From Candidatus Cloacimonadota bacterium (GTDB taxonomy: Bacteria; Cloacimonadota; Cloacimonadia; Cloacimonadales; Cloacimonadaceae), in NCBI GenBank assembly GCA_029561955.1, contig JAKQWO010000036.1, positions 27,814-91,813 of the forward strand: a stretch of 64,000 nt of DNA, in the 5' to 3' direction. Positions 21,258 to 45,250 of the stretch are shown here, one piece after another; position 1 is the first letter of the stretch; every line of letters begins with the position of its first letter. A model generated the notes under the pieces. That model did no database searches and was not told the DNA's origin. It saw nothing but the letters and a program-made list of their open reading frames with translations. A program made the translations under genes and the position numbers.

Positions 21258-24200
21258 TTAAGGTTTTTTCAAGGCTTTCTTAAGGTCACTGTTGTCAACG
21301 TAAACCACCCTGAAGAAGCGTCTGGCTTCTGTTGCGGGTATAGTATAACTATAGGTTTCAGATTCAGCTATGGGTTCAGGACCAAAGTTGTAAGGGTCTT
21401 CTGAAGCATAGATCATATATAGGCCGGGAGGGACGTCGGGGATAGGTTCCCAGGTTAGCACGATATCCGAGCCGGAGAGAGTTATTTGCACCACAGGTGC
21501 AGGGAGCAAGGTAACCACCTTGTCCGGACCGTATACATCATCGATCAGCAGATTGCCCTGCCCTGCGGAAATTGCTTGAATGACCAGATAGATATGCTGG
21601 CCGATATATGCTGACAAATCAAAGGAGTGTAACATATAATACTGGGCGTCAGCCTGTACATTGACAGCTAGGGTGTCGACAGTAGTCATGGAATGAACAC
21701 TTCCGGTGAAGACCAACACATTGAACATCGCTTCACGTTGAGTGCCGTAACTGCGTCCATAAAAGCTGAAGGTGTGGTTTAAATCTGATGGAGCCAGCTT
21801 GGGAGTGATCAGCCAGTCGTTATTGCCTACGGTGACAGCGTCAATCTGGGCATGCGCAACCCCGGTGTTTGACCATGTCTCGGAGCGGAACCAGGTGTTG
21901 CCGCCGCCTTCATTGATCAAAGTCCAGCCATAGGGCGGGAATGCATACCCTTCAAAGCTCTCAAAGAGCGCATTTGCACCCAAGGCTCTACCCTCCAGAG
22001 CTGCGTCATAGTTAATCCCATTATGAACCATACGCAAGGCAGCGGTATGTGCACCCTCTGTAGTGGGACAGTAACGCACCGGGATGATGCCGGTTTGGCG
22101 ATAAGTGAGAGCAAAAGGAAGATTGACAGGATCAAATTCAAACATCGCTGCATCATCTCCAATGATACTGATGTCGGCAGCACTCAAGTTCAGAGTTCCC
22201 ATACCATAATTGAACACAGTTAGATCCTGATACTCTGAGGCGGTATTGATTTGTAAGGTGCCGAGGTTCAGAGGGGTGGGGAAATAGGAAAGTATGGGCC
22301 CTGGAGGCGTTCGAGTCACCCAGAAGCTGTCGATGCTGAGATAGTGGGCATTGGCGATAATACCGTGAATGCCAATCCAATATATGCCATCGGCAGCAGG
22401 AGTGAAGCTGCCATAAATAAACTGATACCCACTGTTGACGACTCCGGTTTGGTCGACGATGATATTGTTCATGGCGTCAGGGGTTCCATCTGTTCCATAG
22501 TAGAAACCCACACTGGCATTTGATGCATTGAGTCCATCCTGTCTCGCCCATACTTCAACGGTGTAGGATTGTCCCGCCTGCAAAGAGAAGGGCCTCATCA
22601 ACCAAGCATTGCCGGTAGACCTCAAGATGGCATTGAAAGCTCCATTACGAGGGATGCAATTGAAGGATGTTTGGCTGGAATTGGCCATCCAATAATTAAC
22701 CGTACTACCTTCTGTATACTGCGTCCATTCCCGCACCGGAGTACCATCCGTTTGCCAATATTCAAATTCTTCACAGTAGGGTATGGAATAGATCACCGGA
22801 TCATAACATTCACCACTCACCACCAAATTTGCATTGTCAGTTTCAGCAGTTATGTTGAAGTTTGCCGAATGATTTCCGACAGCCGTGGGAGAATACACGA
22901 CACTCAAATACCAGCTTTGCCCAAATTCCAAAGCCATCGGGAAGTTGCGAGGTTCGTCCAATTCAAAGAATCCATCAGACCAGGGGCTGATACCCGTGAG
23001 GTTGAGTGTTCCACCTCCAGTGTTGATAACTCTGAAATTCATGCTTTCTACGCCATTGATCGGAATACGCCCAAAGTCCAAAGACGAAGGGTTGACCAAA
23101 AGTTCTGGCTCATCTGCTATTCCTATCATGATATTGGGACGGTTATAGCTACGAGTTCCTGTATTGACGGTATTCCAGGCAACAGAATCGCTACAGTAAT
23201 ACATGGCTCTATATTCGGAAGTGGTAGTGTAGTAGGTGCTGGCGTTTTGCGTGGCTGCTCCCTGCATGCTAAAGCTGGTTTGGATCACAATGTTGGAGGT
23301 TCCATCCCAGTAGAAGGGTGTAGCAAGCTGGTGGGTGTTCCATCCCTGTGTGGGAGTGATTCTTCTCCACAGTAATACACTGGTGAGATCGGTAAAGAAG
23401 TTGTTATCTGTAAATTCCGTGGCGTCAGTAGTTCCCATCCAAATGCTATAGAAGGGCAGGCTGCCACAGCCATTGGGGTTTGCCACATTGAATTTAATGG
23501 AACAGATCATCCCGGGTTGCACTCCTGCCGCAGTTAACTCGCTGGCTGTCACTATGTATTGTTCGCGGGCATTCCGCCGGTAGCCACCATATACAGCCGG
23601 ATATGAATGAGAATCATTGTATGTGGTTCCTCCGCCTATAGTCGCCCAACTGTCAGGGTGAAAGGTAACGAGAAAGTCGACTGACTGATTTTCGGTGCCT
23701 TGATAGTTGTAGCTCGCGGGTTTCCAAATAATATCGCCCAAAACCAGGCTATAAACACCACAGATTTCTTGAGTCTGACCTGTAAAGGTGTAGGGAGTGA
23801 CTTTGCCGGTGTCTTCACCATTCTTGTAAATGGCGGCACCGGGAATGTTTGAGTTTACAGTGAAGGAATAGGCGGCAACTGGAGCAGGAGGCACGATGAG
23901 CCAATTTGCCGAGCCGGTGTAGACAATCGCACTATGATCATAGGTCACCTCAATGGTCTTTTCTACATACTCATAATTAGGATAGGGGTGCACGCCACTA
24001 TGGATACCTGTATCATGGGTATGCCAGATCATGATCTTGAGGTGTTCGCCTAGAAACCACTGGTAGGGCCAAAGACTTTGATTGAACAGGGCTAAAACCA
24101 TATAACCATCACTTTCATTACCAACTTTACAAATCCTCATACTACTTGGAGGTGCACCTAAATCTGTGCCTCTTAACTCATTTGTTTCTACGTGAAGCAC

Positions 24201-24374
24201 CCTCATTATGTAGTGCTCACTGTCAGTATTACCTGTGTTGGTGACATAATCCACGATATCCATGGGACATTCAGGATCCAACTGCAGTCTTTGAATCACC
24301 CAACGAGACGGAGCCTGGGCAAAAGCCATGACTGCCAGCATTAGGAATACGAGTGTTAAAACAATCGTCTTCAT
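21258..24374 (-). CDS. Large secreted/surface protein, 1038 aa
   Basis: Signal peptide 'MKTIVLTLVFLMLAVMAFAQA', Ig-like beta-rich segments and a C-terminal FN3-like module. Shares an internal domain with the C25-PAD protein. Confidence 0.8.
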   Translation of the reverse strand: MKTIVLTLVFLMLAVMAFAQAPSRWVIQRLQLDPECPMDIVDYVTNTGNTDSEHYIMRVLHVETNELRGTDLGAPPSSMRICKVGNESDGYMVLALFNQSLWPYQWFLGEHLKIMIWHTHDTGIHSGVHPYPNYEYVEKTIEVTYDHSAIVYTGSANWLIVPPAPVAAYSFTVNSNIPGAAIYKNGEDTGKVTPYTFTGQTQEICGVYSLVLGDIIWKPASYNYQGTENQSVDFLVTFHPDSWATIGGGTTYNDSHSYPAVYGGYRRNAREQYIVTASELTAAGVQPGMICSIKFNVANPNGCGSLPFYSIWMGTTDATEFTDNNFFTDLTSVLLWRRITPTQGWNTHQLATPFYWDGTSNIVIQTSFSMQGAATQNASTYYTTTSEYRAMYYCSDSVAWNTVNTGTRSYNRPNIMIGIADEPELLVNPSSLDFGRIPINGVESMNFRVINTGGGTLNLTGISPWSDGFFELDEPRNFPMALEFGQSWYLSVVYSPTAVGNHSANFNITAETDNANLVVSGECYDPVIYSIPYCEEFEYWQTDGTPVREWTQYTEGSTVNYWMANSSQTSFNCIPRNGAFNAILRSTGNAWLMRPFSLQAGQSYTVEVWARQDGLNASNASVGFYYGTDGTPDAMNNIIVDQTGVVNSGYQFIYGSFTPAADGIYWIGIHGIIANAHYLSIDSFWVTRTPPGPILSYFPTPLNLGTLQINTASEYQDLTVFNYGMGTLNLSAADISIIGDDAAMFEFDPVNLPFALTYRQTGIIPVRYCPTTEGAHTAALRMVHNGINYDAALEGRALGANALFESFEGYAFPPYGWTLINEGGGNTWFRSETWSNTGVAHAQIDAVTVGNNDWLITPKLAPSDLNHTFSFYGRSYGTQREAMFNVLVFTGSVHSMTTVDTLAVNVQADAQYYMLHSFDLSAYIGQHIYLVIQAISAGQGNLLIDDVYGPDKVVTLLPAPVVQITLSGSDIVLTWEPIPDVPPGLYMIYASEDPYNFGPEPIAESETYSYTIPATEARRFFRVVYVDNSDLKKALKKP

Positions 24375-25233: not shown

Positions 25234-25524
25234 ATGACAAAAGCAGATTTGGTAAAAAAAGTCGCGGAGGACACTGGCTACATTCGTAAGGATGTCGCCC
25301 TGATGATTGATGCCTTCTTGCAAGCAGTAAAGGACACCTTGGCCGAGGGTCACCACATCGAGATCCGTGGGTTTGGCACCTTTAAACTCAAAACACGTAA
25401 AGCCCGCATGGGTCGTAATCCCAAGACCAACGTCAAAGTACCGGTCGAAGCTCGCACCGTTCCCACCTTCAAGTTTTCACGTGAAATCAAGGACTTGGTG
25501 ACGGACATCGAGATTTCGGAATAA
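25234..25524 (+). CDS. HU/IHF-family DNA-binding protein
   Basis: 'IEIRGFGTFKLKTRKARMGRNPKTNVKVPVEARTVPTFKFS'. Start placed at ATG 25234, after AAGGAG. Confidence 0.9.
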   Translation: MTKADLVKKVAEDTGYIRKDVALMIDAFLQAVKDTLAEGHHIEIRGFGTFKLKTRKARMGRNPKTNVKVPVEARTVPTFKFSREIKDLVTDIEISE

Positions 25525-25536
25525 GGATCACCTCAA

Positions 25537-25626
25537 ATGCCTTGCGGAAAGAAACGTAAAAGACACAAAATTGCCACCCACAAGCGTAAAAAACGCCTTC
25601 GCAAAAACCGTCACAAGAAGAAATAA
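25537..25626 (+). CDS. 29-aa Lys/Arg-rich peptide, bS22 / mS38 (AURKAIP1-COX24)-like
   Basis: My own translation: MPCGKKRKRHKIATHKRKKRLRKNRHKKK followed by a stop. Too short for the ORF track. A terminator follows immediately. Confidence 0.6.
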   Translation: MPCGKKRKRHKIATHKRKKRLRKNRHKKK

Positions 25627-25639
25627 CGAATCCTTATGG

Positions 25640-25666
25640 AGCCCGCCTTTTGGTGGGCTTTTTTAT
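25640..25666 (+). terminator. Intrinsic terminator after the HU / small-peptide genes
   Basis: AGCCCGCC, TTTT loop, GGTGGGCT, followed by TTTTTTA. Confidence 0.75.
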
Positions 25667-25776: not shown

Positions 25777-28700
25777 ATGAAATACTTAGATCGGATTTGG
25801 CTTAGCTTGTTGCTGCTGTTTCCTTTGCTTTTGATGGCGGGAAGTTTGCAACTGGGCTCTGGAGAAACGCTCGTAAACGTGCTGGAAAGCAGTGCGGAGC
25901 AGACTATATTACATTTTCAGATTGGCAGCTTCGAGAGTGAATCTGTCGAGATTGATAACGAAACTTGGCAGCACCTGATCCTGGAGAAAGAGGGTGTATT
26001 GCAGCTTGAAGGCTATCCCGCTTTGCCGGTGGTCAATCGCAGCATCATCATTGACGGCAGAGCACAGATGCATCTGGAGCTCTATGACGTAATTTATGAA
26101 GACCTGCAGCTCAAGGTGGCGCCCTCCAAGGGTGTGATCCCGCGCAATATTGACCCCAAGACGGTTCCTTACCGGTTTGCTGATGTCTATGAGAAGGACG
26201 AGTTTTATCCCCGCGAGATTGCCACACTCTCCGAGCCGTATATTTTGAGGGATTATCGTGGAATCACGGTCAATGCCACGCCCTTTGCCTACAATCCGGT
26301 GAGCCAGACGCTGCGCATTTTCAAGAGCTTTAAGCTGCGCATTTATGCCGAAGGCGAGAGTCAGGTGAACACGCTGGACGCCTCCCGCAGCAGCTTTAGC
26401 CGTGACTTTGAGCAGGTTTACGCTCAGCACTTTATCAACTGGCCTTCACATCGCTATACGCCTGTGAATGATAGCTTTGGCAAGCTGTTGGTGATCTGCC
26501 ACTCCAGCTTTATGGACGCTATCCAGCCCTATGTAAACTGGAAAAAGCAAAAGGGCATCGAGACTGAATTGATCAACTTTTCCACCATCGGCAGCACTGC
26601 CGCACAACTTCAATCCTACATCCAAAACCGCTATAATGCAGACAATTCCATCGCCTATGTGCAGATTGTTGGAGACGCACCCCAGATTCCCACCCTCACT
26701 CACCAAAGTGGCGGATCAGACCCCACTTTCTCGTTGGTTGCAGGTAGCGACAACTATCCGGACATCTTTATCGGACGCTTCAGTGCTCAGTCGGTGGCGG
26801 ATGTCAATGCGCAAGTAAACAAAACCATCGCCTACGAAAGGGACGCAACGACTGCCGACAACTGGCTTTCCCGCGCCATGGGCATCGCCTCAAGTGAGGG
26901 AAGTAGCAGCGCAGACAACGGCGAAACAGACATCCAGCACATGAACGTGATCAGAACTAAGCTGCTCAACTACGGCTACACCAGCGTGGATCAGGTTTAC
27001 GATCCGAATGCCTCTGCTTCGACCGTTACCAACAACGTCAATGCCGGACGTGGCTTGATCAACTATGTGGGGCACGGGGGAGACACCTCTTGGGTCACCA
27101 CCGGTTTTAACAACACCAATGCTTCCAACCTCACCAACGGCACCAAAACGCCCGTGATCATGGACGTGGCCTGCGTAAACGGCAACTTCGTTGCCAAAAC
27201 CTGCTTTGCTGAGGCTTGGCAGAGAAATGCCAACGGCGGCTCGGTGACCATATATGCCTCATCCATCAATCAGTCCTGGGCCTCTCCCATGCGGGCTCAA
27301 GATGAGTTTAACGACCTCTTGGTGGGCGAGCAGAAGTTCACCGCAGGCGGGCTTTACTACAACGCTTCCTGCAAGATGATGGACGTCTATGGGACTGATG
27401 GCGTGAATATGTTCAAGACTTGGCACATCTTTGGAGACGCTGCTCTCTTGGTGCGCAGCAAGACTCCTACTGCCATGAACGTAACCCACCCCAACAGCAT
27501 AGTTCAGGGCACCACTTCGCTGACGGTCAATACCGGAGTTGCCAATGCTTTAGTGGCTTTGACCAACAATAACAACATCCTCGGGCGAGGCTACACCAAC
27601 TCCGCCGGTACCGTCACTCTCTCTTTGAGTGGAATGCCGGAAGGCTCAGCCACTTACACCCTTACAGTCACGGCGCATAATCGAGTCACTTACATCGCTA
27701 CCGTTACCCAAGTTCCACCTTCCGGGCCTTGGATTGATGTGGAAGAGGCCACTTGGCAGGATAACAACAACGATGAGCCGGAATTTGGCGAAAGCGGAGC
27801 CTTGAGCCTGAAGCTGAAGAATTCGGGTTCAGAACCTTCTGCTGCGCTCACTCTTACCCTGTCCTGCAGCACCACCGGCGTGACGCTCACCAACAACACG
27901 CATCAGACGGATGCTATCGCAGCGGGTGTGACTGTGGACATCCATTCCGCTTTTGGCATTCAACTGGCAGATAACCTCTTGGATGGCACGGAGTTGAACT
28001 TCAGCCTGAGCATCACCTCAGGCACCCAAAGCTGGACTCATGAATTTGTCTTGATCGCCAAAGCACCAGCCTTAGCCTTGGGAGACATTCTGGTGAACGA
28101 CAGCACAGGCAACAACAGTGGCACCCTTGATCCCGGCGAAAACGTCAACCTCATCATCACGATACTCAACAACGGCGCAGCAGCCAGTCCTGCGGGAAGC
28201 GTCAGCCTCAGCTCACCCACCACCGGGATCACCATTGGCACCTCCAGCATTGATATCCAGAGCATCGCTGCGGGAGCGTCAATCCAGGTATCTTTCCCCG
28301 TCAGCGTCAGCGCCAGTATGCCTCAAGGCAGCTCTGCCAGTTTTGACGTCATGGCCATCACCGGTGCCTATTATGTCGCCCAAACCTTCCTCTTGCAGGT
28401 GGGTGATCCCATCGCGGTGACCATCGGCAACGGCACGGATACACAATCATATCCGCTGAATAGGTATTACAGTTACAGCGCGCACGAAGCCATCTACTTG
28501 AGTTCTGAGATTGGCATGGCCGGCAGGATAGAAAAGATCGCTTTCTACAAGAGCAGTGGGAGTGATACGAATCCAATTGAGGCAGTTCAGATCTACATGA
28601 AACACACTTCCAGCAGCACCCAGGACAATGGAACTTACAGCACAGCAGGTTACACTCTGGTGTTTAGCGGCAGCTATCCAAACCATAGCACCAGCGGCTG

Positions 28701-30726
28701 GATGGAAGTGCCGCTCAGCTCTCAATTTGAATACAACGGCACATCAAACCTGAGTATCCTGATCGTGAAAGGCTATCAATACTGGACAAGTGCCTATCCG
28801 AGATGGACTTATACATCTGCCAGCACCTATAGAGTCAGGCGGGCTCAAAATGACTATGGTGCTCCCACAAATCTTTCAAGGAGCTACGACCTCCCCAACA
28901 TCCGCCTCAAGATTTACCCTCAGATGAGCGGGCCTGCCATTTCCTCCAATCCTACTTCCATTTCTGCTACCGTGCATGAGGATGAAAGCGGCAGCAGCAC
29001 ACTTATCCTGAGCAATAGCGGTGACTTGCCGCTTACCTGGAACACCAATGCCTCCTTCGCCACTTGGGGCAACGTGAGCCCTACCAGCGGAACCATCCCC
29101 ACAGGTGGCTCTGTGACGCTCACTGTGAGCTATAATGCCGCATCTTTGAGCGTGGGAACGCATCATGCCTCCATCCAGATCAATTCCGATGCTACCAATC
29201 AAAACCCCTACAACATCCCCGTTTCCTTGCAGGTTTTGGCCTCACCTTATCCTCCCAGCCCGCGTTTAGTGGCCGAATGGGAGCCCGCCAAGGGAGTTTT
29301 GGTGCGCTATCCTTTAGGCTTGCCCTACAATCTATTAGCCGATATTTCACAGCACGGAAAGCTATATGTGATCGTGAGTTCATCGGATCAAAGCAGTTGT
29401 CACAGCAACCTGAGCAGCAATGGCGTCAATATGAGCAACGTGATCTACATAAATGCCAGCACAAACAGCGTCTGGGTAAGGGATTACGCCCCCTGGTTTG
29501 TCTTCGATGATCAGCGTGAGCTGCGCGTGGTGGATTTTAAATACAACCGCCCCAGACCCAGTGATAATAACGTTCCCAGCGTGATTGCCGATGCCTTGGG
29601 CTATGAGTATCACTACCTGCCTCTGGTAGCCACAGGTGGAAATATGATGACGGACGGCCAGGGCAAGATGATGTCTACCACTTTGGTGCTGGAAGAGAAT
29701 GACGGAAACCCCAACACCGGCGGTGGACAGGTGACGGAATACACCTACACTCAAGCTGAGATTGAGACCTTGGTGGAGGACTATCTGGGCGTGAGCGAAT
29801 ATCAGTTTTATCAAGACCCAAATGGCACCTACATCGATCATATTGACTGCTGGGCCAAGCTTTTGGACGTGGATAAAGTGATGATCCGCAGCGTGCCGCC
29901 ATCGCATGCTCAATACTCCGCCATCGAAGCCTCGGTAGCCGAGTGGCAGAGCAAAACTTCCTCCTACGGAACGCCTTACCGCATCTACCGTGTCAATACG
30001 CCCAACGATGAGCCCTATTCCAATAGCCTCATCTTCAACAATTACATCTATGTGCCGCTGATGGGGAACGCCAACGACGCTGCCGCTCTGCAAGCCTATC
30101 GTGACGCCATGCCCGGCTACACGGTGAACGGATACACCTATTCCGCTTTTCAGGGCACCGATGCGCTGCACTGCCGCACCAATACTATCTTTGACGAGGG
30201 CATGATCCAGATCATCCACACTCCCGTGACTACCGCCATGGCAAGCTCGCCCTTGGAGATCAATTTCAGCCTCTCTCATGTGGATGCCATAGACTTGAAT
30301 GGCTCCTACGTGGCCTATAAATCCGCCACTGATGCCACTTGGCAATATGCCACCCTCAGCTCACTGGGAAACGATGACTGGACAGCGGAGGTCATTGCAC
30401 CCGCCTTTGGAGAAGAGATGCAGTATTATATCTACGTGCAGGACAGCAGCGGCCGTCAAAGCCAGATGCCGCTCTGCGGGCCGAGCGATCCCTTCAGCTT
30501 CGTTATCGATCAGGCTTTGCCAGTCGCACCGATTGTGAATATTCAGATCGTCTCTGAGGCCGCTTATCTGAGCTGGGAAGCTGTTCCCGGGGCTGCATAC
30601 TACAAGGTCTATAAGGCCAGCTATCCTTATGGGGAGTATGAGTTTATCGGTCAGACAATTGATACTTCCTTCGACATCACACCTCTGGCAGATAAAGCCT
30701 TTTTCAAGGTGGTAAGCGGCTTTTGA
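25777..30726 (+). CDS. Secreted multidomain protein, 1649 aa. Gingipain-type C25 cysteine protease plus Ig-like repeats plus a Porphyromonas-type peptidyl-arginine/agmatine deiminase-fold domain plus a FN3-like C-terminus.
   Basis: Start moved to ATG 25777 (MKYLDRIWLSLLLLFPLLLMAG) because the track ORF begins inside the terminator. C25 catalytic His in 'INYVGHGG' (~27063) and Cys in 'MDVACVNGNF' (~27163). Deiminase motifs 'VWVRDYAPWF', 'ATGGNMMTDGQG', 'IDHIDCWAKLL' and 'TDALHCRTN' lie between ~29260 and 30240. Confidence 0.85.
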   Translation: MKYLDRIWLSLLLLFPLLLMAGSLQLGSGETLVNVLESSAEQTILHFQIGSFESESVEIDNETWQHLILEKEGVLQLEGYPALPVVNRSIIIDGRAQMHLELYDVIYEDLQLKVAPSKGVIPRNIDPKTVPYRFADVYEKDEFYPREIATLSEPYILRDYRGITVNATPFAYNPVSQTLRIFKSFKLRIYAEGESQVNTLDASRSSFSRDFEQVYAQHFINWPSHRYTPVNDSFGKLLVICHSSFMDAIQPYVNWKKQKGIETELINFSTIGSTAAQLQSYIQNRYNADNSIAYVQIVGDAPQIPTLTHQSGGSDPTFSLVAGSDNYPDIFIGRFSAQSVADVNAQVNKTIAYERDATTADNWLSRAMGIASSEGSSSADNGETDIQHMNVIRTKLLNYGYTSVDQVYDPNASASTVTNNVNAGRGLINYVGHGGDTSWVTTGFNNTNASNLTNGTKTPVIMDVACVNGNFVAKTCFAEAWQRNANGGSVTIYASSINQSWASPMRAQDEFNDLLVGEQKFTAGGLYYNASCKMMDVYGTDGVNMFKTWHIFGDAALLVRSKTPTAMNVTHPNSIVQGTTSLTVNTGVANALVALTNNNNILGRGYTNSAGTVTLSLSGMPEGSATYTLTVTAHNRVTYIATVTQVPPSGPWIDVEEATWQDNNNDEPEFGESGALSLKLKNSGSEPSAALTLTLSCSTTGVTLTNNTHQTDAIAAGVTVDIHSAFGIQLADNLLDGTELNFSLSITSGTQSWTHEFVLIAKAPALALGDILVNDSTGNNSGTLDPGENVNLIITILNNGAAASPAGSVSLSSPTTGITIGTSSIDIQSIAAGASIQVSFPVSVSASMPQGSSASFDVMAITGAYYVAQTFLLQVGDPIAVTIGNGTDTQSYPLNRYYSYSAHEAIYLSSEIGMAGRIEKIAFYKSSGSDTNPIEAVQIYMKHTSSSTQDNGTYSTAGYTLVFSGSYPNHSTSGWMEVPLSSQFEYNGTSNLSILIVKGYQYWTSAYPRWTYTSASTYRVRRAQNDYGAPTNLSRSYDLPNIRLKIYPQMSGPAISSNPTSISATVHEDESGSSTLILSNSGDLPLTWNTNASFATWGNVSPTSGTIPTGGSVTLTVSYNAASLSVGTHHASIQINSDATNQNPYNIPVSLQVLASPYPPSPRLVAEWEPAKGVLVRYPLGLPYNLLADISQHGKLYVIVSSSDQSSCHSNLSSNGVNMSNVIYINASTNSVWVRDYAPWFVFDDQRELRVVDFKYNRPRPSDNNVPSVIADALGYEYHYLPLVATGGNMMTDGQGKMMSTTLVLEENDGNPNTGGGQVTEYTYTQAEIETLVEDYLGVSEYQFYQDPNGTYIDHIDCWAKLLDVDKVMIRSVPPSHAQYSAIEASVAEWQSKTSSYGTPYRIYRVNTPNDEPYSNSLIFNNYIYVPLMGNANDAAALQAYRDAMPGYTVNGYTYSAFQGTDALHCRTNTIFDEGMIQIIHTPVTTAMASSPLEINFSLSHVDAIDLNGSYVAYKSATDATWQYATLSSLGNDDWTAEVIAPAFGEEMQYYIYVQDSSGRQSQMPLCGPSDPFSFVIDQALPVAPIVNIQIVSEAAYLSWEAVPGAAYYKVYKASYPYGEYEFIGQTIDTSFDITPLADKAFFKVVSGF

Positions 30727-32309: not shown

Positions 32310-33440
32310 ATGTTAAAAAGATTGTATGTAAACAACTACAGGTGCTTGGTCAATTTCGAGATTGGGTTTGACGCCATGACATTGCTTTTAGGCAGGAATG
32401 GCAGCGGGAAAACGAGCATCTTGGATATTCTTCACAGCATCAGAAGATTGATAACTGGCAGCGATAGAGTAGGTGAAGTCATCTCACTGGACGACATGAC
32501 AGTTTGGTTAGATTCCAAAAAGCAGACATTCGAGCTGTCAGTTGAGGGTAATGGTGGATTGTATGATTACAAGCTTGTGCTTGAGTACAATGAGAAACAA
32601 AAGGGACTGCAAATAGATTCCGAATCCCTACGATGTAATGGTATTCCGTTGTTTGATTTTTTGAAAGGGGAAGTTGATGTATATATTGATGACCGTTCCG
32701 GATTGCATTACCCTGTTGATCCGTCCTGGTCTGCACTTACCATCACAACTGACGTTAATAGAAGTGGTAGAATCGAGTGGTTCAGAAAATGGTTTGAGAA
32801 GCTATTTGTCCTGAGCATTCAGCCCCAGAATATGAGTGCTACAAGTAAATCCGAATCAGTTGGGTTGAACCTCTATGGGACGGATTTTGTTTCTTGGTAC
32901 AGGTTTATCTCCCAAGAATATCAGGACATGATCCCAGTGTTATTTAAAAACCTCAGGGATTCTATACCCGGCTTTGCTTCCTTCAGGCTGGAAACCATTG
33001 GTGACAGCAAAAAGCTGAAAGTGGGTTTTGAAAGTGAAGATAACCCCCAGAAAATACAATTCTTCGATTTTGATCGTATCTCGGATGGTGAAAGAGCACT
33101 AATCGTCTTGTATACGCTGATAATTGGATTAAAAGATCTGGGCATAACTTTGGTACTTGATGAGCCGGTTAATTTTGTTGCTTTGTCTGAGATCCAACCT
33201 TGGCTGATGGAACTCAATGATGCTTGTGGTGTTAGAGATCTACAAGATCACAGCCGTGGTATTGCCCAGACTATTATTGCCAGCCATCATCCTGAACTGA
33301 TGGACTACTTTGGGATAGATGATTGCAGGTTCCTTGATCGAGAGCCACTGGGGCCAACGCGGGTAAAACTACCATCAGCCGAGCTTGATGGCAGTTTAAG
33401 CCTCTCTGAGGTCATCGCACGGGGGTGGGAGCATGAGTAA
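32310..33440 (+). CDS. ABC-type (AAA_15/AAA_21-like, RloA-like) ATPase, 376 aa
   Basis: Walker A 'GRNGSGKTS', signature-like 'ISDGERALIVLY', Walker B 'LVLDEP' and H-loop 'IASHHP'. Confidence 0.8.
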   Translation: MLKRLYVNNYRCLVNFEIGFDAMTLLLGRNGSGKTSILDILHSIRRLITGSDRVGEVISLDDMTVWLDSKKQTFELSVEGNGGLYDYKLVLEYNEKQKGLQIDSESLRCNGIPLFDFLKGEVDVYIDDRSGLHYPVDPSWSALTITTDVNRSGRIEWFRKWFEKLFVLSIQPQNMSATSKSESVGLNLYGTDFVSWYRFISQEYQDMIPVLFKNLRDSIPGFASFRLETIGDSKKLKVGFESEDNPQKIQFFDFDRISDGERALIVLYTLIIGLKDLGITLVLDEPVNFVALSEIQPWLMELNDACGVRDLQDHSRGIAQTIIASHHPELMDYFGIDDCRFLDREPLGPTRVKLPSAELDGSLSLSEVIARGWEHE

Positions 33441-33975
33441 AAGAAGGAAAGCAACGCTCATTGTTGTCTGCGAGGATAAGCGTCAAAAGACCTTCGCATA
33501 CAGATTTTTGCTTGGCATGGGATGGGAGAGACATCAGATACACTTTAGCAAAATGTCATCAGGAAGTGGATCGGGGGCAAAAAGGGTAATAGAAACGTAT
33601 CCCCTAGAGCTGAAGATTTATAGGAGCAGACACGTTACTTGTGCCCTTGTGGTGATTATTGATGGAGATGAGCGAGGAGTTGAGGCAAGGATGCGGCAAC
33701 TTAACCAAGAATGCGGGAATTTTGGAATCCCGTGCAGGCAAAAGGAAGAAAAGGTTGCTTTCATTGTACCAACATACAGCATTGAAACTTGGATCAGGTT
33801 TTTGCAAGGATACCCGGTGAATGAAGAATTAAACTATAAGGAGAAAGTACACGATGATGAATGCAAGCCGTCTGCAGACAGGCTAGTTGAATATTGCAAG
33901 TCAACAGTTTTACCCAATAATGCGCCATCCGCCTTACGTTTGGCGTGTGATGAATACCGGGAGAGGATAAGGTGA
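33433..33975 (+). CDS. Small Toprim-like protein (RloB/DUF4276-like), 180 aa
   Basis: 8-nt overlap with the ATPase gene. 'ATLIVVCEDKRQKTFAYRF' (strand plus acidic pair) and 'ALVVIIDGDERG' (DxD) fit the Toprim E...DxD pattern. Confidence 0.55.
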   Translation: MSKRRKATLIVVCEDKRQKTFAYRFLLGMGWERHQIHFSKMSSGSGSGAKRVIETYPLELKIYRSRHVTCALVVIIDGDERGVEARMRQLNQECGNFGIPCRQKEEKVAFIVPTYSIETWIRFLQGYPVNEELNYKEKVHDDECKPSADRLVEYCKSTVLPNNAPSALRLACDEYRERIR

Positions 33976-34090
33976 GTGTGGCTGCTATTCTTATGCACTG
34001 TCCCAAGTGTTTGTATACTGGAAGGGTTATTATGTTGGCTGGTCCAGTGGAAGATAGAAAAGAGCTGATAATGAAGATAAGGAGAAAACA

Positions 34091-34834
34091 ATGGATCCAA
34101 TAAGTGCAGCAGTCGTCATCAAAGAGGCTGCAGAAAAGACGGCTTTAGCAGTCAAAGAAACATTAAAGTTGGCGGAATTAGCAAAAGAAGGCATTAAACG
34201 TCTCAAGATAAGAGAATTGTTCAAAAGTAAAGAGCTGAGTCCCAATGCCTTAGAACTTGCCAAAGAAAACTATAAACACCTGCACAAAAAGATAAGTGAG
34301 GCTAAAGAAAATGCTGAACTTCGTGCTCCAACGATTAACCAATTGATGGATGAATCCAATAACCTAAAGGGTCAAATGGGAGAGTTCCATGCCGATCAAT
34401 ATTTTAGCAGATTCGGAGAAGTTAAAAGACAATTGTCTGTCACAACAGAAAGGGGACAATTTAGGGTGGATTTCGATGTTAGGTTGAAAAAAAACATGCC
34501 CATAAAGTCTTTCACTATGAAGGACGGAATCTTAAAGTCGAGGCGTGAAGTAATACGAGCTGGCGAGAGGATGGGCGTAGAAATCAAGAATGGCCCCACT
34601 GAATTATACCAAAACCCTGAACATGTTATCAATCAAGCCCTGGCAGCCAAAGAGTTGACGGGGAATGGCTGTATTGGAATAAGCAAAACAGTATCGGAAG
34701 CCATATGTGAAAATCCTGAATCATATGAGAAGTTTTTTAATATGGCCGCAGAAAATGATATCAGAATTATAGAGACACACCCTACAATAGATCAACAAAT
34801 ATCCGAAATAATTAGCCTGTTTAAGGAGGACTGA
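34091..34834 (+). CDS. Coiled-coil protein with a PD-(D/E)xK nuclease-like core, 247 aa
   Basis: AAGGAG precedes the ATG. The first ~90 aa are helical and K/E-rich. Then 'GEFHADQYF' (E98), 'FRVDFDV' (D127/D129) and 'GVEIKNG' (E164-x-K166). Confidence 0.5.
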   Translation: MDPISAAVVIKEAAEKTALAVKETLKLAELAKEGIKRLKIRELFKSKELSPNALELAKENYKHLHKKISEAKENAELRAPTINQLMDESNNLKGQMGEFHADQYFSRFGEVKRQLSVTTERGQFRVDFDVRLKKNMPIKSFTMKDGILKSRREVIRAGERMGVEIKNGPTELYQNPEHVINQALAAKELTGNGCIGISKTVSEAICENPESYEKFFNMAAENDIRIIETHPTIDQQISEIISLFKED

Positions 34835-35253
34835 TGCCACACATATACACAATTTCATCTGACGAGAGGTTACTAACGCTATACAATGGATTCGACATGG
34901 CTGCAGGAAATGCATTTGAAGGAGATGAAAGACAGAGATTCAAAGCCATTCTATCTGCCCGGGAGTATAGGAGTCGGCTATTGGAGCGGCTAAAAGAACT
35001 TGATGGGTCGGATAAGCCCAGGATAATAGACCCCAAAATTATTGACAACAAAGCTAACGATCAAACGCTAATAGGAAGATTTGCAGCACTCCTGCTTGGC
35101 AAAACGGACCTTGGTGAATTCATTTTGCACAACCAAGATAAGGTGGGTGAGGAGCTGAGAAGCTTGCTGAGTGATATAGAGCGAAAAACCAAAGCCGATC
35201 AATATGTGTTGTTTTGGCTTGTGAGTGAGGAGGATCAAGATGGCATTATATAA
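34834..35253 (+). CDS. Hypothetical protein, 139 aa
   Basis: Its ATG overlaps the previous stop by 1 nt (TGATG). No motif recognised. Confidence 0.5.
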   Translation: MPHIYTISSDERLLTLYNGFDMAAGNAFEGDERQRFKAILSAREYRSRLLERLKELDGSDKPRIIDPKIIDNKANDQTLIGRFAALLLGKTDLGEFILHNQDKVGEELRSLLSDIERKTKADQYVLFWLVSEEDQDGII

Positions 35254-43903: not shown

Positions 43904-45250
43904 ATGAAACACGTATTTACTATTCTACTGTTGATCAGCATCTCGCTGGCTTTTGCCCAGCCGGAATACTATCCCCTCACCTCGATTGCGGAGACCTTTT
44001 CCACAAACTGGTGTACGGGATGTCAGGAGATGTATGCGGGCATCAATGTGCTGCATGATCAGATGCACGCCGGTGAATTTATCTCCACACGGCTCTACAC
44101 GGAATCCGGCCCGCTGAGCAATGACGATGTGCAGGCACGCTTTGATCACTATGGCGTGGTGGGTTTCCCTACCGTGATCTTCAACGGCAAAGCCAGAGTT
44201 GATGGTGCAAACGATGAAACGCACAACGGGCAAGATTATCTGAATGCTATGAAGCCCTATCGCTTTGCCATTTCGCCCTTGAAGATGCAGATAACAGCAT
44301 TTAACAGGCAGACGGGCGCCATCTCGGTGAATGTGCAGATGGTGTCTTCCACCTTCAACCTGCAAAATGCCAACCTGATACTCTATCTTTTGGAAGATGA
44401 CGTCACGGATATTGAAACCCATGTGACGAGGCAGGTTATTCAGCATCCGATCACACTTTCCGGAGCGGGAAATAGCACTCAGGTGGATAAGACCTTCACC
44501 ATCAGTGCAGATTATGACACGACCAAGCTCTGGGCGGCAGCATTTGTCCAATTGGCTGACGATAACATCGTGCAAACGGCGCATACGCTGGCACTGCCTG
44601 AACATCATATCCGCGCTGCTTTCAATTGGGATGCCACTGTCGTTTCTCCCTTGGGAGAGGCTTCTTATCTATCGCAGCCCTTCTGGGTCTTCAATCTGGG
44701 TGTCGAAGAGAGCATCAATACCCGGATAGTGGTGGATGAAGGGCCGGACAACTGGTATTTCAACTACTGCGATGAAGATGATAACTGCTATCCTGGCAGC
44801 ATTCCCATGCCACACACTCTCGTTGCTGGCGAAATCAAAGGTTTTCATCTCAACATCATGCTCTCGGGCAGTGGTATTGCCAGATTCCGCTTTGTGATCT
44901 CTTCAGACTCTTTGGGTGAGTATAGCATTCCCTTTGTGCTCGTAACCGACGATTTGGACAGCGATGATCACGTGATCCCAAACTACAGCCTCAACCTCAA
45001 GGCAAACTACCCCAACCCTTTCTCTGCCAATACCTCCATCGTGGTGGAGGCACAGAAGACAGCCGGAGATGTGGTCGTGGACATCTATAACATCAAAGGG
45101 CAAAAGGTGGATAGCTTGGAGCTGAGGCAGCTTAGTGATGGCAGCAATGAGATGGTGTGGAGCCCTTCCAAAGACCTTCCCGCGGGAGTGTATCTGCAGA
45201 AGATACGTGGCACAAACCTGCCCGCCAGAAGGATGATGTATATTAAGTAG
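43904..45250 (+). CDS. Secreted protein with a CxxC (WCTGCQ) and a T9SS type-A C-terminal sorting domain
   Basis: The C-terminus 'NYPNPFSANTSIVVEA...VVDIYNIKGQKV...GVYLQKIRG' matches the Por/T9SS CTD pattern. Confidence 0.75.
   Translation: MKHVFTILLLISISLAFAQPEYYPLTSIAETFSTNWCTGCQEMYAGINVLHDQMHAGEFISTRLYTESGPLSNDDVQARFDHYGVVGFPTVIFNGKARVDGANDETHNGQDYLNAMKPYRFAISPLKMQITAFNRQTGAISVNVQMVSSTFNLQNANLILYLLEDDVTDIETHVTRQVIQHPITLSGAGNSTQVDKTFTISADYDTTKLWAAAFVQLADDNIVQTAHTLALPEHHIRAAFNWDATVVSPLGEASYLSQPFWVFNLGVEESINTRIVVDEGPDNWYFNYCDEDDNCYPGSIPMPHTLVAGEIKGFHLNIMLSGSGIARFRFVISSDSLGEYSIPFVLVTDDLDSDDHVIPNYSLNLKANYPNPFSANTSIVVEAQKTAGDVVVDIYNIKGQKVDSLELRQLSDGSNEMVWSPSKDLPAGVYLQKIRGTNLPARRMMYIK

What the first reader, a model, noticed from the sequence alone, without database searches (positions are those of the whole stretch)
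25777..30726. Gingipain-type C25 protease and a Porphyromonas-type arginine deiminase domain fused in one 1649-aa secreted protein
The N-terminal half has the C25 catalytic dyad context ('INYVGHGG' and 'MDVACVNGNF'), preceded by a propeptide-like region.

Residues encoded by ~29260-30240 carry the guanidino-modifying-enzyme motifs of the PAD_porph/agmatine deiminase family: 'WVRDYAPWF', 'TGGNMMTDGQG', 'IDHIDCW' and the catalytic-Cys context 'ALHCRTN'.

In Porphyromonas gingivalis the Arg-gingipains and PPAD are separate proteins that act in sequence. The protease exposes C-terminal Arg residues and PPAD then citrullinates them. Here the two activities appear as one polypeptide, a Rosetta-stone-type fusion separated by Ig-like repeats. 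This would physically couple cleavage and deimination.
Basis: partly seen in the sequence, partly recalled or inferred. Interest (0 to 1): 0.68.

Follow-up and report, generated by a model that had tools for sequence, protein, structure and literature searches.

The report
Fused Arg-protease and C-terminal-arginine deiminase
One 1649-residue secreted protein of an uncultured Cloacimonadota bacterium joins close relatives of two famous Porphyromonas gingivalis enzymes, the Arg-gingipain protease and the citrullinating enzyme PPAD, and this fusion is conserved across the phylum, so the cut-then-citrullinate pairing is old and environmental and not special to a gum pathogen.

Summary
Window 25777-30726 (+) is one uninterrupted 1649-codon ORF.

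The N-terminal part is an RgpB-type gingipain with prodomain, catalytic domain and IgSF domain (E about 1e-96 to PDB 1cvr/4ief). It keeps His/Cys, the Arg-binding Asp163 and both autoprocessing arginines.

The C-terminal part is a PPAD-type deiminase with catalytic and IgSF domains (E about 1e-87 to 4yt9/6i0x, against 1e-12 for agmatine deiminases). It keeps the Cys351/His236/Asn297 triad, Asp130/Asp238, and Arg152/Arg154/Tyr233, which clamp a C-terminal carboxylate.

Four beta-sandwich modules lie between the two enzymes. An Fn3 module, not a T9SS CTD, ends the protein.

The fusion is not an artefact. 118 of the best 120 homologues have both domains, with linkers of 15 to about 1000 residues. 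An 84%-identical orthologue aligns without gaps, with dN/dS of 0.10-0.23 in every segment.

Where PPAD-like genes stand alone, a gingipain-type gene is often the immediate neighbour (Bacteroidota MAGs and a confirmed archaeal contig).

Most likely mechanism: a secreted zymogen cleaves after Arg, and its tethered deiminase converts the new C-terminal Arg to citrulline. Whether the chain stays in one piece, and the physiological purpose, are untested.

I found no paper describing the fusion. I rate it a new variant of a known kind.

The parts
25777..25842 (+). Predicted Sec signal peptide (aa 1-22, MKYLDRIWLSLLLLFPLLLMAG).
   Evidence: Read from the sequence. The start codon is supported by the upstream terminator at 25638-25661 and by the 1649-aa orthologues. 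No signal-peptide predictor was run.
25843..26454 (+). Gingipain prodomain (aa 23-226). It carries the inhibitory-loop Arg123 (nt 26143-26145, equivalent to proRgpB Arg126) and the maturation-site Arg226 before Tyr227 (nt 26452-26454, equivalent to Arg229).
   Evidence: Pfam Propeptide_C25 3e-28. PDB 4ief_A E 1e-30. Both arginines are invariant in 121/121 family members. Their role in RgpB is described in PMC4357240.
26455..27456 (+). C25 catalytic domain, RgpB-type (aa 227-560). Key residues are Glu374, Asp385 (S1 pocket, RgpB Asp163), His433, Cys466 and Trp501.
   Evidence: PDB 1cvr/4ief E about 1e-96 and 40% identity. Residue mapping. D163, H211, C244 and W284 are invariant in 121/121 members.
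27457..27711 (+). Gingipain IgSF domain (aa 561-645).
   Evidence: Pfam Peptidase_C25_C 1.4e-19. The alignment to RgpB runs to residue 429.
27712..28401 (+). Two CARDB/NEW3-like Ig-type modules (aa 646-875) that contain no arginine.
   Evidence: Weak Pfam hits to NPCBM_assoc (3e-4) and CARDB (1.6e-3), both below the curated cut-offs. Zero Arg in 230 aa.
28402..28926 (+). Beta-sandwich or jelly-roll module of unknown family (aa 876-1050), probably a binding module.
   Evidence: No Pfam or PDB sequence hit. AF2 model with pLDDT 89, all-beta. Only weak fold matches to phage fibre domains, the Cwp84 lectin-like domain and CBMs, with TM about 0.5. Present in 1-2 copies in 97 family members and in the neighbouring ORF 21258..24374.
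28927..29256 (+). BACON_2/HYDIN-type Ig-like module (aa 1051-1160) that contains no Arg or Lys.
   Evidence: Pfam HYDIN_VesB_CFA65-like_Ig 3e-7 and BACON_2 3e-6. Composition.
29257..30198 (+). PPAD-type deiminase catalytic domain (aa 1161-1474). Key residues are Trp1233, Asp1236, Arg1258, Arg1260, Gly1288, Tyr1352, His1355, Asp1357, Cys1358, Asn1416 and Cys1466.
   Evidence: PDB 6i0x/4yt9 E about 1e-87. Pfam PAD_porph 9e-32. Residue mapping. Family conservation. Residue roles from Goulas 2015.
30199..30507 (+). PPAD-type IgSF domain (aa 1475-1577).
   Evidence: The alignment to PPAD continues to residue 461 of its IgSF domain, which spans G360-E465.
30508..30726 (+). C-terminal Fn3 module (aa 1578-1649) plus the stop codon. 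It is a candidate sorting or anchoring module and is not a T9SS CTD.
   Evidence: No TIGR04183 or Por_Secre_tail hit even at E up to 10. Profile against PDB 3mpc Fn3-like, E 3e-10. AF2 model pLDDT 84, with all top Foldseek hits being Fn3 domains. The module lies within 30 aa of the stop in 33 of 34 ORFs that carry it.
21258..24374 (-). Divergently transcribed paralogous accessory protein (1038 aa). It has a signal peptide and shares the jelly-roll, Ig and Fn3-tail modules, but has no catalytic domain.
   Evidence: BLASTP against the fusion: 26% identity over 291 aa, E 3e-8, and the tail at E 8e-4. Pfam finds only a HYDIN-type Ig domain.

Best explanation
The gene encodes a secreted zymogen that carries two enzymes on one stalk.

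Step 1 (inferred from homology to RgpB): after Sec export, the prodomain blocks the protease by placing Arg123 in the S1 pocket. The enzyme then activates itself by cutting after Arg123 and after Arg226.

Step 2 (inferred from the conserved His433/Cys466 dyad and S1 Asp385): the mature RgpB-like domain cuts extracellular proteins after arginine. Hydrolysis of the acyl-enzyme releases peptides that end in a free C-terminal Arg.

Step 3 (inferred from the conserved PPAD triad and the Arg1258/Arg1260/Tyr1352 carboxylate clamp): the PPAD-like domain on the same polypeptide takes these C-terminal arginines and converts them to citrulline plus ammonia. The fusion guarantees 1:1 expression, co-secretion and co-localisation of the two steps.

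Step 4 (weaker inference): the Arg-poor Ig and jelly-roll modules act as a protease-resistant spacer and binding stalk. The terminal Fn3 module targets or anchors the protein.

The organism is a Cloacimonadota bacterium, judged by its nearest relatives. This phylum is described as anaerobic and amino-acid fermenting, so the likely context is protein scavenging rather than virulence.
For: Domain identity.

Catalytic and specificity residues: all are present in the window protein and invariant or nearly so in 119-121 family members.

Zymogen sites: both arginines are invariant in 121/121 members. Their role is described in PMC4357240.

Sequential action in P. gingivalis: PPAD prefers C-terminal Arg by about 5500-fold. 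It acts on Rgp-generated peptides, and gingipain-null mutants lack endogenous citrullination (Goulas 2015).

Fusion conservation: 118 of the 120 best homologues have both domains, always in the order C25 then PAD, with linkers of 15 to about 1040 aa.

Purifying selection: dN/dS is 0.10-0.23 in every segment against an 84%-identical orthologue.

Independent gene-neighbourhood evidence: in 10 loci with stand-alone PPAD-like genes, a C25 gene (gingipain-type in most) is immediately adjacent on the same strand. These are Bacteroidota MAGs and two MAGs labelled archaeal, one on a verified archaeal contig. The PADs keep all key residues, and 8 of 9 readable C25s keep Asp163. The partners carry the same lineage-specific C-terminal sorting module.

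Arg economy: the prodomain has 5.8% Arg, while linkers have 1.6% Arg, against a window background of 4.1%. There is no Arg in 41 of 41 short linkers, and none in 340 aa of Ig modules in the window protein. This fits a stalk built to survive an Arg-specific protease.
Against: No activity, processing or localisation data exist for any family member.

Linker length varies about 70-fold, so direct active-site-to-active-site channelling cannot be a conserved feature.

An invariant Arg (Arg1163, equivalent to PPAD Arg56) sits at the start of the PAD domain. It could be a self-cleavage site that releases the deiminase.

The protein has no recognisable T9SS CTD, although another ORF in the window has one. 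How a 1649-aa protein crosses the outer membrane is therefore unknown.

Low Arg and Lys content is common in extracellular Ig-like domains in general, so the Arg-depletion argument is only suggestive.

The physiological benefit of citrullinating peptide C-termini is unknown. A link to citrulline catabolism was looked for and not found.

The NJ tree suggests several independent fusion or fission events, but its internal branches are short.
Confidence: 0.65

Rival explanations
1. Polyprotein precursor. As in RgpA and Kgp, the fusion serves only for co-expression and co-secretion. After activation the protease cuts the chain, for example after the invariant Arg1163, and the two enzymes then act as separate proteins, possibly still associated non-covalently.
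For: An invariant Arg lies at the PAD N-terminal boundary in 118/119 members. In P. gingivalis, PPAD's own propeptide is absent from the mature enzyme, which starts at A44. Both enzymes also work as separate proteins in many lineages.
Against: The same Arg is conserved in PPAD itself (Arg56). There it lies inside the ordered mature enzyme, which spans A44-N464, so it is probably structural. Inter-domain linkers are otherwise almost free of Arg, with none in 41 of 41 short linkers. That is the opposite of what a polyprotein processed by an Arg-protease would need.
Confidence: 0.22
2. The C-terminal enzyme is an agmatine or free-arginine deiminase that produces ammonia or polyamine. It is merely attached to a protease and has no substrate hand-over from it.
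For: NCBIfam agmatine deiminase models hit weakly, at 60-68 bits against cut-offs of 382-483. JGI labels relatives 'agmatine/peptidylarginine deiminase'.
Against: The match to PPAD is 297 bits, against 50 bits or less for solved agmatine deiminases. The carboxylate-binding Arg152 and Arg154 are invariant and Tyr233 is mostly conserved (82 of 119). The list of PPAD/agmatine-deiminase equivalent positions in Goulas 2015 does not include these three residues. The PPAD-specific IgSF domain is present, whereas agmatine and arginine deiminases have no extra domains. The protein also has an extracellular architecture.
Confidence: 0.06
3. The C25 domain is a PorU-like sortase or transpeptidase, or a Lys-specific or otherwise specific peptidase, and does not generate C-terminal Arg.
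For: NCBIfam T9SS_sortase (PorU) hits at 45 bits. Family C25 contains PorU and Kgp.
Against: RgpB matches at E 1e-96, against 1e-27 for Kgp and 1e-4 for PorU. The prodomain is present with both RgpB autoprocessing arginines. The S1 Asp163 and the Trp284 lid are invariant.
Confidence: 0.04
4. Assembly chimera or frameshift artefact that joins two neighbouring genes.
For: None was found. Separate adjacent C25 and PAD genes do exist in other lineages.
Against: The same architecture occurs in more than 100 clusters from ENA, JGI, NCBI and Logan. There is a gapless alignment to an independent assembly, with purifying selection in the linkers. The minimal 1132-aa form is seen on contigs up to 273 kb.
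Confidence: 0.01

Closest known systems
Arg-gingipain RgpB of Porphyromonas gingivalis (MEROPS family C25; PDB 1cvr, 4ief)
   Same: The prodomain, catalytic domain and IgSF domain are in the same order, with 40% identity over 430 aa. The His211/Cys244 dyad, Asp163, the Gly210/Gly212 and Trp284 S1 pocket, and both autoprocessing arginines (126 and 229) are conserved.
   Different: There is no T9SS C-terminal domain. About 1000 further residues follow, including a second enzyme. The host is an environmental Cloacimonadota bacterium, not a Bacteroidota pathogen.
PPAD, the Porphyromonas peptidylarginine deiminase (PDB 4yt9, 4ytb, 6i0x)
   Same: The catalytic alpha/beta-propeller plus the long IgSF domain align at 37% identity over 418 aa. 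The triad Cys351/His236/Asn297, Asp130/Asp238, Trp127, Gly182, Cys239, and the C-terminal-carboxylate clamp Arg152/Arg154/Tyr233 are all present.
   Different: It is not a stand-alone protein. It has no signal peptide or propeptide of its own and no T9SS CTD. In 36 of 119 family members Tyr233 is Ser or Thr, though not in the window protein.
RgpA and Kgp polyproteins of P. gingivalis
   Same: These are large multidomain gingipain precursors in which the catalytic and IgSF domains are followed by non-catalytic beta-sandwich modules.
   Different: Their C-terminal extension consists of haemagglutinin/adhesin domains that are cut apart at Arg or Lys (own knowledge). Here the modules match no cleaved-adhesin profile. 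The linkers are Arg-poor, and the extension ends in a second enzyme.
Adjacent but separate C25 and PPAD-like genes in Bacteroidota MAGs (L018, L024, L051, L061, L043, L057) and in MAGs labelled archaeal (L076, L047)
   Same: The same two enzyme types have the same key residues and are evidently co-inherited. Both partners carry the same lineage-specific C-terminal module.
   Different: They are two genes and two polypeptides. The order can be PAD then C25. The sorting modules are a T9SS CTD in Bacteroidota, or a PKD domain plus a hydrophobic tail in the archaeal-labelled MAGs.

Membership tests
Peptidase family C25, Arg-gingipain (RgpB) type | Catalytic His211/Cys244 dyad in a caspase-like fold. 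| tested here: met
   His433 and Cys466 align to the dyad. Both are invariant in 121/121 members. Pfam Peptidase_C25 1e-60. PDB 1cvr E 4e-95.
Peptidase family C25, Arg-gingipain (RgpB) type | S1 pocket with Asp163 forming a salt bridge to the P1 Arg, and Trp284 as a lid. | tested here: met
   Asp385 and Trp501 are present and invariant in the family. Their role is described in PMC4357240.
Peptidase family C25, Arg-gingipain (RgpB) type | N-terminal prodomain with the inhibitory-loop Arg126 and the maturation site Arg229. | tested here: met
   Propeptide_C25 3e-28. Arg123 and Arg226 are each conserved in 121/121 members.
Peptidase family C25, Arg-gingipain (RgpB) type | IgSF domain directly after the catalytic domain. 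| tested here: met
   Peptidase_C25_C 1.4e-19 at aa 564-643.
Peptidase family C25, Arg-gingipain (RgpB) type | C-terminal T9SS sorting domain (CTD). | tested here: not met
   No Por_Secre_tail or TIGR04183 hit at E up to 10. The tail folds as Fn3 and matches only Fn3 structures. A true CTD is detectable in another ORF of the window.
Peptidase family C25, Arg-gingipain (RgpB) type | Arg-X endopeptidase activity. | not testable with these tools
   This needs an enzyme assay.
PPAD-type peptidylarginine deiminase (Pfam PAD_porph, PPAD subgroup) | Guanidino-modifying catalytic set: Cys351, His236, Asn297, Asp130 and Asp238. | tested here: met
   Cys1466, His1355, Asn1416, Asp1236 and Asp1357. They are invariant in 118-119 of 119 members. 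Residue roles from Goulas 2015.
PPAD-type peptidylarginine deiminase (Pfam PAD_porph, PPAD subgroup) | C-terminal-carboxylate clamp Arg152/Arg154/Tyr233, which makes the enzyme an exo-deiminase. | tested here: met
   Arg1258, Arg1260 and Tyr1352 are present. Arg152 and Arg154 are invariant in 119/119 members. Position 233 is Tyr in 82 members, Ser in 30 and Thr in 6.
PPAD-type peptidylarginine deiminase (Pfam PAD_porph, PPAD subgroup) | Long IgSF domain after the catalytic propeller. | tested here: met
   The alignment to PPAD runs through residue 461 of the IgSF domain. Agmatine and arginine deiminases lack extra domains.
PPAD-type peptidylarginine deiminase (Pfam PAD_porph, PPAD subgroup) | Own signal peptide, short propeptide and T9SS CTD (the stand-alone secreted protein). 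| tested here: not met
   The PAD domain starts at aa 1161 of a larger protein and ends in an Fn3 module.
PPAD-type peptidylarginine deiminase (Pfam PAD_porph, PPAD subgroup) | Citrullination of peptides with a C-terminal Arg. | not testable with these tools
   This needs an enzyme assay or mass spectrometry.
Rosetta-stone (functionally linked) gene fusion | The two parts occur as separate, functionally cooperating proteins in other organisms. | tested here: met
   In P. gingivalis, Rgps and PPAD are separate proteins that cooperate (literature). Separate adjacent genes occur in 10 loci.
Rosetta-stone (functionally linked) gene fusion | The fusion is conserved and under selection, and is not a one-off artefact. 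| tested here: met
   118 of the 120 best homologues are fused. 15 fused ORFs occur among 79 GTDB species-representative loci. dN/dS is 0.14 overall.

The most novel reading that the evidence does not exclude
The Arg-protease plus C-terminal-Arg deiminase pair is an ancient, mobile, two-step module for processing extracellular protein in anaerobes. It exists as fused, adjacent or unlinked genes in Cloacimonadota, Bacteroidota and other candidate phyla, and on at least one confirmed archaeal contig. On this reading the P. gingivalis Rgp/PPAD system, and its link to rheumatoid arthritis, is a host-adapted offshoot. The fused form would act as a true tandem enzyme whose tethered deiminase captures the protease's products. 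The Tyr233-to-Ser/Thr sublineage might even have gained endo-deiminase activity.
Probability: 0.35. Interest if true: 0.78.

Novelty: new variant of a known kind. Interest (0 to 1): 0.62.

Why it matters
PPAD is still described, in a review dated August 2026, as a unique enzyme with homologues only in a few Porphyromonas species. Its physiological role is an open question. Its cooperation with Arg-gingipains is the basis of the proposed link between periodontitis and rheumatoid arthritis.

This locus and its relatives show three things:
- PPAD-type enzymes are common in environmental anaerobes. At least 594 loci were found in GTDB species representatives, and 526 clusters at 50% identity scored below 1e-30.
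- Their partnership with an Arg-specific gingipain is hard-wired by gene fusion or gene adjacency in organisms that have no host. This argues that the primary function is nutritional or physiological, not immunological.
- There is a natural single-chain version, as short as 1132 aa, on which the cut-then-citrullinate hypothesis can be tested directly.

The fused enzyme could also be a useful reagent for making C-terminally citrullinated peptides.

Tried and rejected
T9SS cargo: I expected a CTD as in RgpB and PPAD. None was found by Pfam or NCBIfam at E up to 10 or by fold search. The tail is an Fn3 domain.

Gingipain adhesin domains: the 876-1050 module is not recognisable as a cleaved-adhesin domain. 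It gave no Pfam or PDB sequence hit and only weak jelly-roll or lectin-like fold matches.

Agmatine deiminase: rejected, with 50 bits or less against 297 bits for PPAD.

PorU-like sortase: rejected.

Conserved partner genes: apart from the closely related L080, which keeps HU-fusion-EamA, tblastn of the window's neighbouring ORFs against 79 related loci found no synteny. The only hits were the shared modules inside the fusion proteins themselves.

Citrulline catabolism link: an ornithine carbamoyltransferase gene lies next to the archaeal C25-PAD pair, but it occurs in no other locus. I treat it as coincidence.

Single origin of the fusion: an NJ tree of the PAD domain places fused proteins in at least three places. 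Internal branches are very short, so I draw no firm conclusion.

Literature: eight full-text searches found no description of the fusion. Cloacimonadota papers list only 'gingipain-like C25' peptidases.

A second C25 or PAD copy in the window: none.
Full report
**1. What is in the sequence**

Window 25777..30726 (+) is a single ORF of 1649 codons with no internal stop. A longer reading from ATG 25636 is possible on paper. It is not the gene, for two reasons. A 10-bp G+C-rich hairpin followed by a T-run sits at 25638-25661, closing the upstream HU/IHF gene (25234-25524) and a tiny basic ORF. The closest orthologues are also exactly 1649 aa.

The N-terminus (MKYLDRIWLSLLLLFPLLLMAG) looks like a Sec signal peptide. 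This is read from the sequence; no predictor was run.

**2. Domain anatomy**

Pfam gives:
- Propeptide_C25, aa 33-217, 3e-28
- Peptidase_C25, aa 238-557, 1e-60
- Peptidase_C25_C, aa 564-643, 1e-19
- weak CARDB/NEW3-type Ig hits at aa 777-851
- BACON_2/HYDIN-type Ig at aa 1055-1145
- PAD_porph, aa 1184-1469, 9e-32

Against solved structures, the N-terminal 708 aa match mature RgpB (1cvr, 4ief_B) at E about 1e-96 and its prodomain (4ief_A) at 1e-30. Kgp scores only 1e-27 and PorU 1e-4. The C-terminal 516 aa match PPAD (6i0x, 4yt9, 5ak7) at E about 1e-87, over both its catalytic and IgSF domains. Agmatine deiminases reach only 1e-12 to 1e-6. So the two ends are specifically RgpB-like and PPAD-like, not just members of the broad families.

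The stretch at aa 876-1050 has no sequence match. With a family alignment, AlphaFold gives a confident all-beta model with pLDDT 89. This model has only weak jelly-roll or lectin-like fold matches, with TM about 0.5.

The last 72 aa are an Fn3 domain. The family profile matches PDB 3mpc at 3e-10. The model has pLDDT 84, and its top 50 Foldseek hits are Fn3 domains or Fn3-containing multidomain proteins, with no T9SS CTD among them.

**3. Catalytic competence**

I numbered the alignments through the printed PDB chains and checked the numbering. I then mapped the residues shown to matter in RgpB (review PMC4357240) and in PPAD (Goulas 2015, PMC4487231).

Protease residues in the window protein:
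- Glu374, equivalent to E152
- Asp385, equivalent to D163, the residue that forms a salt bridge to the P1 Arg
- His433 and Cys466, the catalytic dyad
- Trp501, equivalent to W284, the lid of the S1 pocket

Across 121 family members, D163, G210, H211, G212, C244 and W284 are invariant.

Both autoprocessing arginines of proRgpB are invariant in 121/121 members. These are the inhibitory-loop Arg126, which plugs the S1 pocket, and Arg229 at the prodomain/mature junction. Here they are Arg123 in 'GVIPR' and Arg226 in 'HR|YTPV'.

Deiminase residues in the window protein:
- Trp1233, Asp1236, Gly1288, His1355, Asp1357, Cys1358, Asn1416 and Cys1466
- the three residues that hold the substrate's C-terminal carboxylate: Arg1258, Arg1260 and Tyr1352

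W127, D130, R152, R154, G182, H236, D238, C239 and N297 are invariant in 119/119 members. C351 is conserved in 118/119. Position 233 is Tyr in 82 members, Ser in 30 and Thr in 6.

According to Goulas 2015, R152 is indispensable. The R152/R154/Y233 network is what makes PPAD an exo-deiminase with a preference of about 5500-fold for C-terminal Arg.

**4. The fusion is real and widespread**

A search of 5.8 billion clustered proteins gave 1756 hits at E of 1e-10 or better. 118 of the best 120 carry both PF01364 and PF04371; only P0087 and P0089 lack the PAD domain.

The order is always prodomain, C25, Ig, linker, PAD, IgSF, then a tail. The linker ranges from 15 aa, in a compact 1132-aa class with 41 members, to about 1040 aa.

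Named members are all Cloacimonadota: Ca. Cloacimonas, Syntrophosphaera and Cloacimonadaceae. NCBI calls them 'C25 family cysteine peptidase'. JGI calls them 'agmatine/peptidylarginine deiminase'.

An orthologue from an independent assembly (GCA_040436515.1, locus L080) is 84% identical and aligns without a single gap. It keeps the HU-fusion-EamA gene order. Its dN/dS is 0.10-0.23 in each of nine segments, including the linkers and the tail. A chimera or frameshift artefact is effectively excluded.

**5. Wider distribution of the two enzymes**

A full HMMER scan of 1.84 billion representatives with the PAD+IgSF region found 2667 relatives, 526 of them below 1e-30. Among the top 150 representatives, 19 are fused to C25. 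About 110 are stand-alone, with the PAD domain starting 45-90 residues from the N-terminus, as in PPAD.

A scan of GTDB species representatives found at least 594 loci. The best 79 come from:
- Cloacimonadota
- Bacteroidales and Lentimicrobium
- Delongbacteria, Eisenbacteria and Fermentibacteria
- several MAGs labelled archaeal (Methanomassiliicoccales, Thermoplasmatota)

In these 79 loci, 15 ORFs are fused. In 10 loci with a stand-alone PAD gene, a C25 gene (gingipain-type in most) is the immediate neighbour on the same strand, in either order.

All ten of these PADs keep every key residue. The C25 partners keep the dyad, and 8 of the 9 that could be read keep Asp163.

Locus L076 is truly archaeal. 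Its flanking genes hit archaeal FEN-1 (1.6e-138), Nep1 and PurP.

The partners share lineage-specific C-terminal modules. In the Bacteroidetes locus L018 these are T9SS CTD-type: Por_Secre_tail on the C25 protein and FlgD_ig on the PAD protein. In L076 both have a PKD domain plus a common hydrophobic tail.

Fusion, adjacency and shared targeting together are classic comparative-genomic evidence that the two enzymes work together.

An NJ tree of the PAD domain separates a mainly fused Cloacimonadota clade, which contains the window protein, from a mainly stand-alone clade, which contains PPAD. The stand-alone clade itself holds two small fused groups. Internal branches are short, so the number of fusion events is unresolved.

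**6. How it most likely works**

Shown by sequence:
- a zymogen with an RgpB-type prodomain
- an intact Arg-type active site
- an intact PPAD-type active site with the C-terminal-carboxylate clamp
- a stalk of beta-sandwich modules
- a strictly C-terminal Fn3 module

Inferred: after export the enzyme activates itself at Arg123 and Arg226 and cleaves proteins after Arg. Deacylation then yields peptides with a free C-terminal Arg. The deiminase on the same chain converts this Arg to citrulline and releases ammonia.

The arginine distribution fits a scaffold built to survive its own protease. The discarded prodomain has 5.8% Arg. Linkers have 1.6% Arg and 1.3% Lys, against 4.1% and 6.1% in the other ORFs of the window. 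The three Ig modules of the window protein have no Arg in 340 aa. All 41 short linkers have none. This evidence is suggestive only, because extracellular Ig-like domains are often poor in basic residues.

Linker length varies about 70-fold. What is conserved is therefore co-expression, co-export and co-localisation, not a fixed channel between the two active sites.

The purpose of the deimination is not known. Possible roles are ammonia release, removal of product inhibition of the protease, or charge neutralisation of peptides before uptake. None was tested. A link to citrulline catabolism found no support.

**7. Main rival**

The main alternative is a polyprotein that is cut into two enzymes. 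An invariant Arg (Arg1163) opens the PAD domain. However, the same Arg is conserved in PPAD as Arg56, inside the ordered mature enzyme, so it is probably structural. I cannot decide this by computation.

**8. Secretion and anchoring**

Unlike RgpB and PPAD, the protein has no T9SS CTD. ORF 43904..45250 in the same window does have one (TIGR04183, 6.7e-8).

The Fn3 tail behaves like a sorting or anchoring module. It is at the extreme C-terminus in 114 of 121 family members. It lies within 30 aa of the stop in 33 of 34 ORFs in the fetched loci that carry it. These include PAD-only ORFs, C25-only ORFs and six unrelated ORFs, as well as the divergent neighbour 21258..24374.

Other fused lineages end instead in dockerin repeats (P0197) or in a Cys-rich 'GWYH...CGMG' module (P0205 and P0220 group). 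The catalytic pair is the constant; the targeting module is swapped.

**9. Comparison with what is known, and novelty**

The parts are a new member of the RgpB type and a new member of the PPAD type. The combination is what differs.

Goulas 2015 calls PPAD unique among microbes. A review of August 2026 lists homologues only in P. gulae and P. loveana. [quoted passage not shown] Cloacimonadota genome papers mention only 'gingipain-like C25' peptidases.

Eight full-text searches found no description of the fusion, or of the conserved C25-PAD gene pair outside Porphyromonas. The sequences themselves are in public databases under generic automatic names. I therefore rate the finding as a new variant of a known kind, with interest 0.62.

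Noticed in passing
window 30508-30723 and window 21258-21500 (-): A roughly 70-aa Fn3 module (W..AV..A..Y.[IV]Y....PYG.Y..[IV]G.T......AF[FY]K[VI]) sits at the extreme C-terminus of unrelated secreted proteins of this lineage. It lies within 30 aa of the stop in 33 of 34 carrier ORFs. It behaves like a sorting or anchoring signal that is distinct from the T9SS CTD also present in this genome.
   Followed up: partly
L076:5298-9623 (archaeal MAG contig JAFNFT010000102.1); also L047, L042, L077: Gingipain-type C25 and PPAD-type genes lie side by side on a contig whose neighbours are archaeal markers (FEN-1, Nep1, PurP). Both proteins carry a PKD domain and a shared C-terminal motif 'WS.PL.VTMP...RFP' followed by a hydrophobic tail. 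This points to transfer of the enzyme pair into archaea of the Methanomassiliicoccales/Thermoplasmatota type.
   Followed up: partly
family members P0007, P0009-P0012, P0014, P0015 and others (PPAD position 233; window aa 1352 is Tyr): In 36 of 119 fused family members, all long forms, PPAD Tyr233 is replaced by Ser or Thr. Tyr233 blocks C-terminally extended substrates. Human PAD4, an endo-deiminase, has Ser at this position. This sublineage might accept internal arginines.
   Followed up: partly
window 28402-28926; also window 23118-23675 (-): A 175-190-aa beta-sandwich or jelly-roll module with no Pfam or PDB sequence match occurs in one or two copies, of two subtypes, in 97 family members. 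It also occurs in the neighbouring non-catalytic ORF. In PAD-only proteins P0132, P0146 and P0245 it lies directly after the signal peptide.
   Followed up: partly
P0197; P0205/P0220/P0224/P0269/P0272: Divergent fused C25-PAD proteins carry other C-terminal modules. P0197 has two dockerin-like repeats; compare the dockerin-bearing C25 peptidase reported for Ca. Stygibacter. The P0205 group has a Cys-rich 'NLIGWYH...CGMG.FVEV' module, and one fragment of that cluster is labelled Thermoplasmata archaeon.
   Followed up: no
window 25537-25626 (+): A 29-aa extremely basic ORF (MPCGKKRKRHKIATHKRKKRLRKNRHKKK) lies between the HU/IHF gene and a strong terminator. It looks like a tiny ribosomal-type protein, but it gave no NCBIfam hit.
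   Followed up: partly
window 32310-38335 (+): A stretch that looks like a defence island. It holds an AriA/HEC-01A-like AAA ATPase (PADLOC 2e-18), three small ORFs without hits, and a 1036-aa HerA-like ATPase (1e-18).
   Followed up: partly
window 43904-45250 (+): A 448-aa protein with an Omp28-like region and a bona fide T9SS type A sorting domain. It shows that this genome has T9SS cargo even though the fusion protein lacks the signal.
   Followed up: no
L076:3021-3938 (-): An ornithine carbamoyltransferase gene lies 1.4 kb upstream of the archaeal C25-PAD pair. It is tempting as a citrulline link, but it was found next to none of the other 82 loci, so it is probably coincidence.
   Followed up: yes
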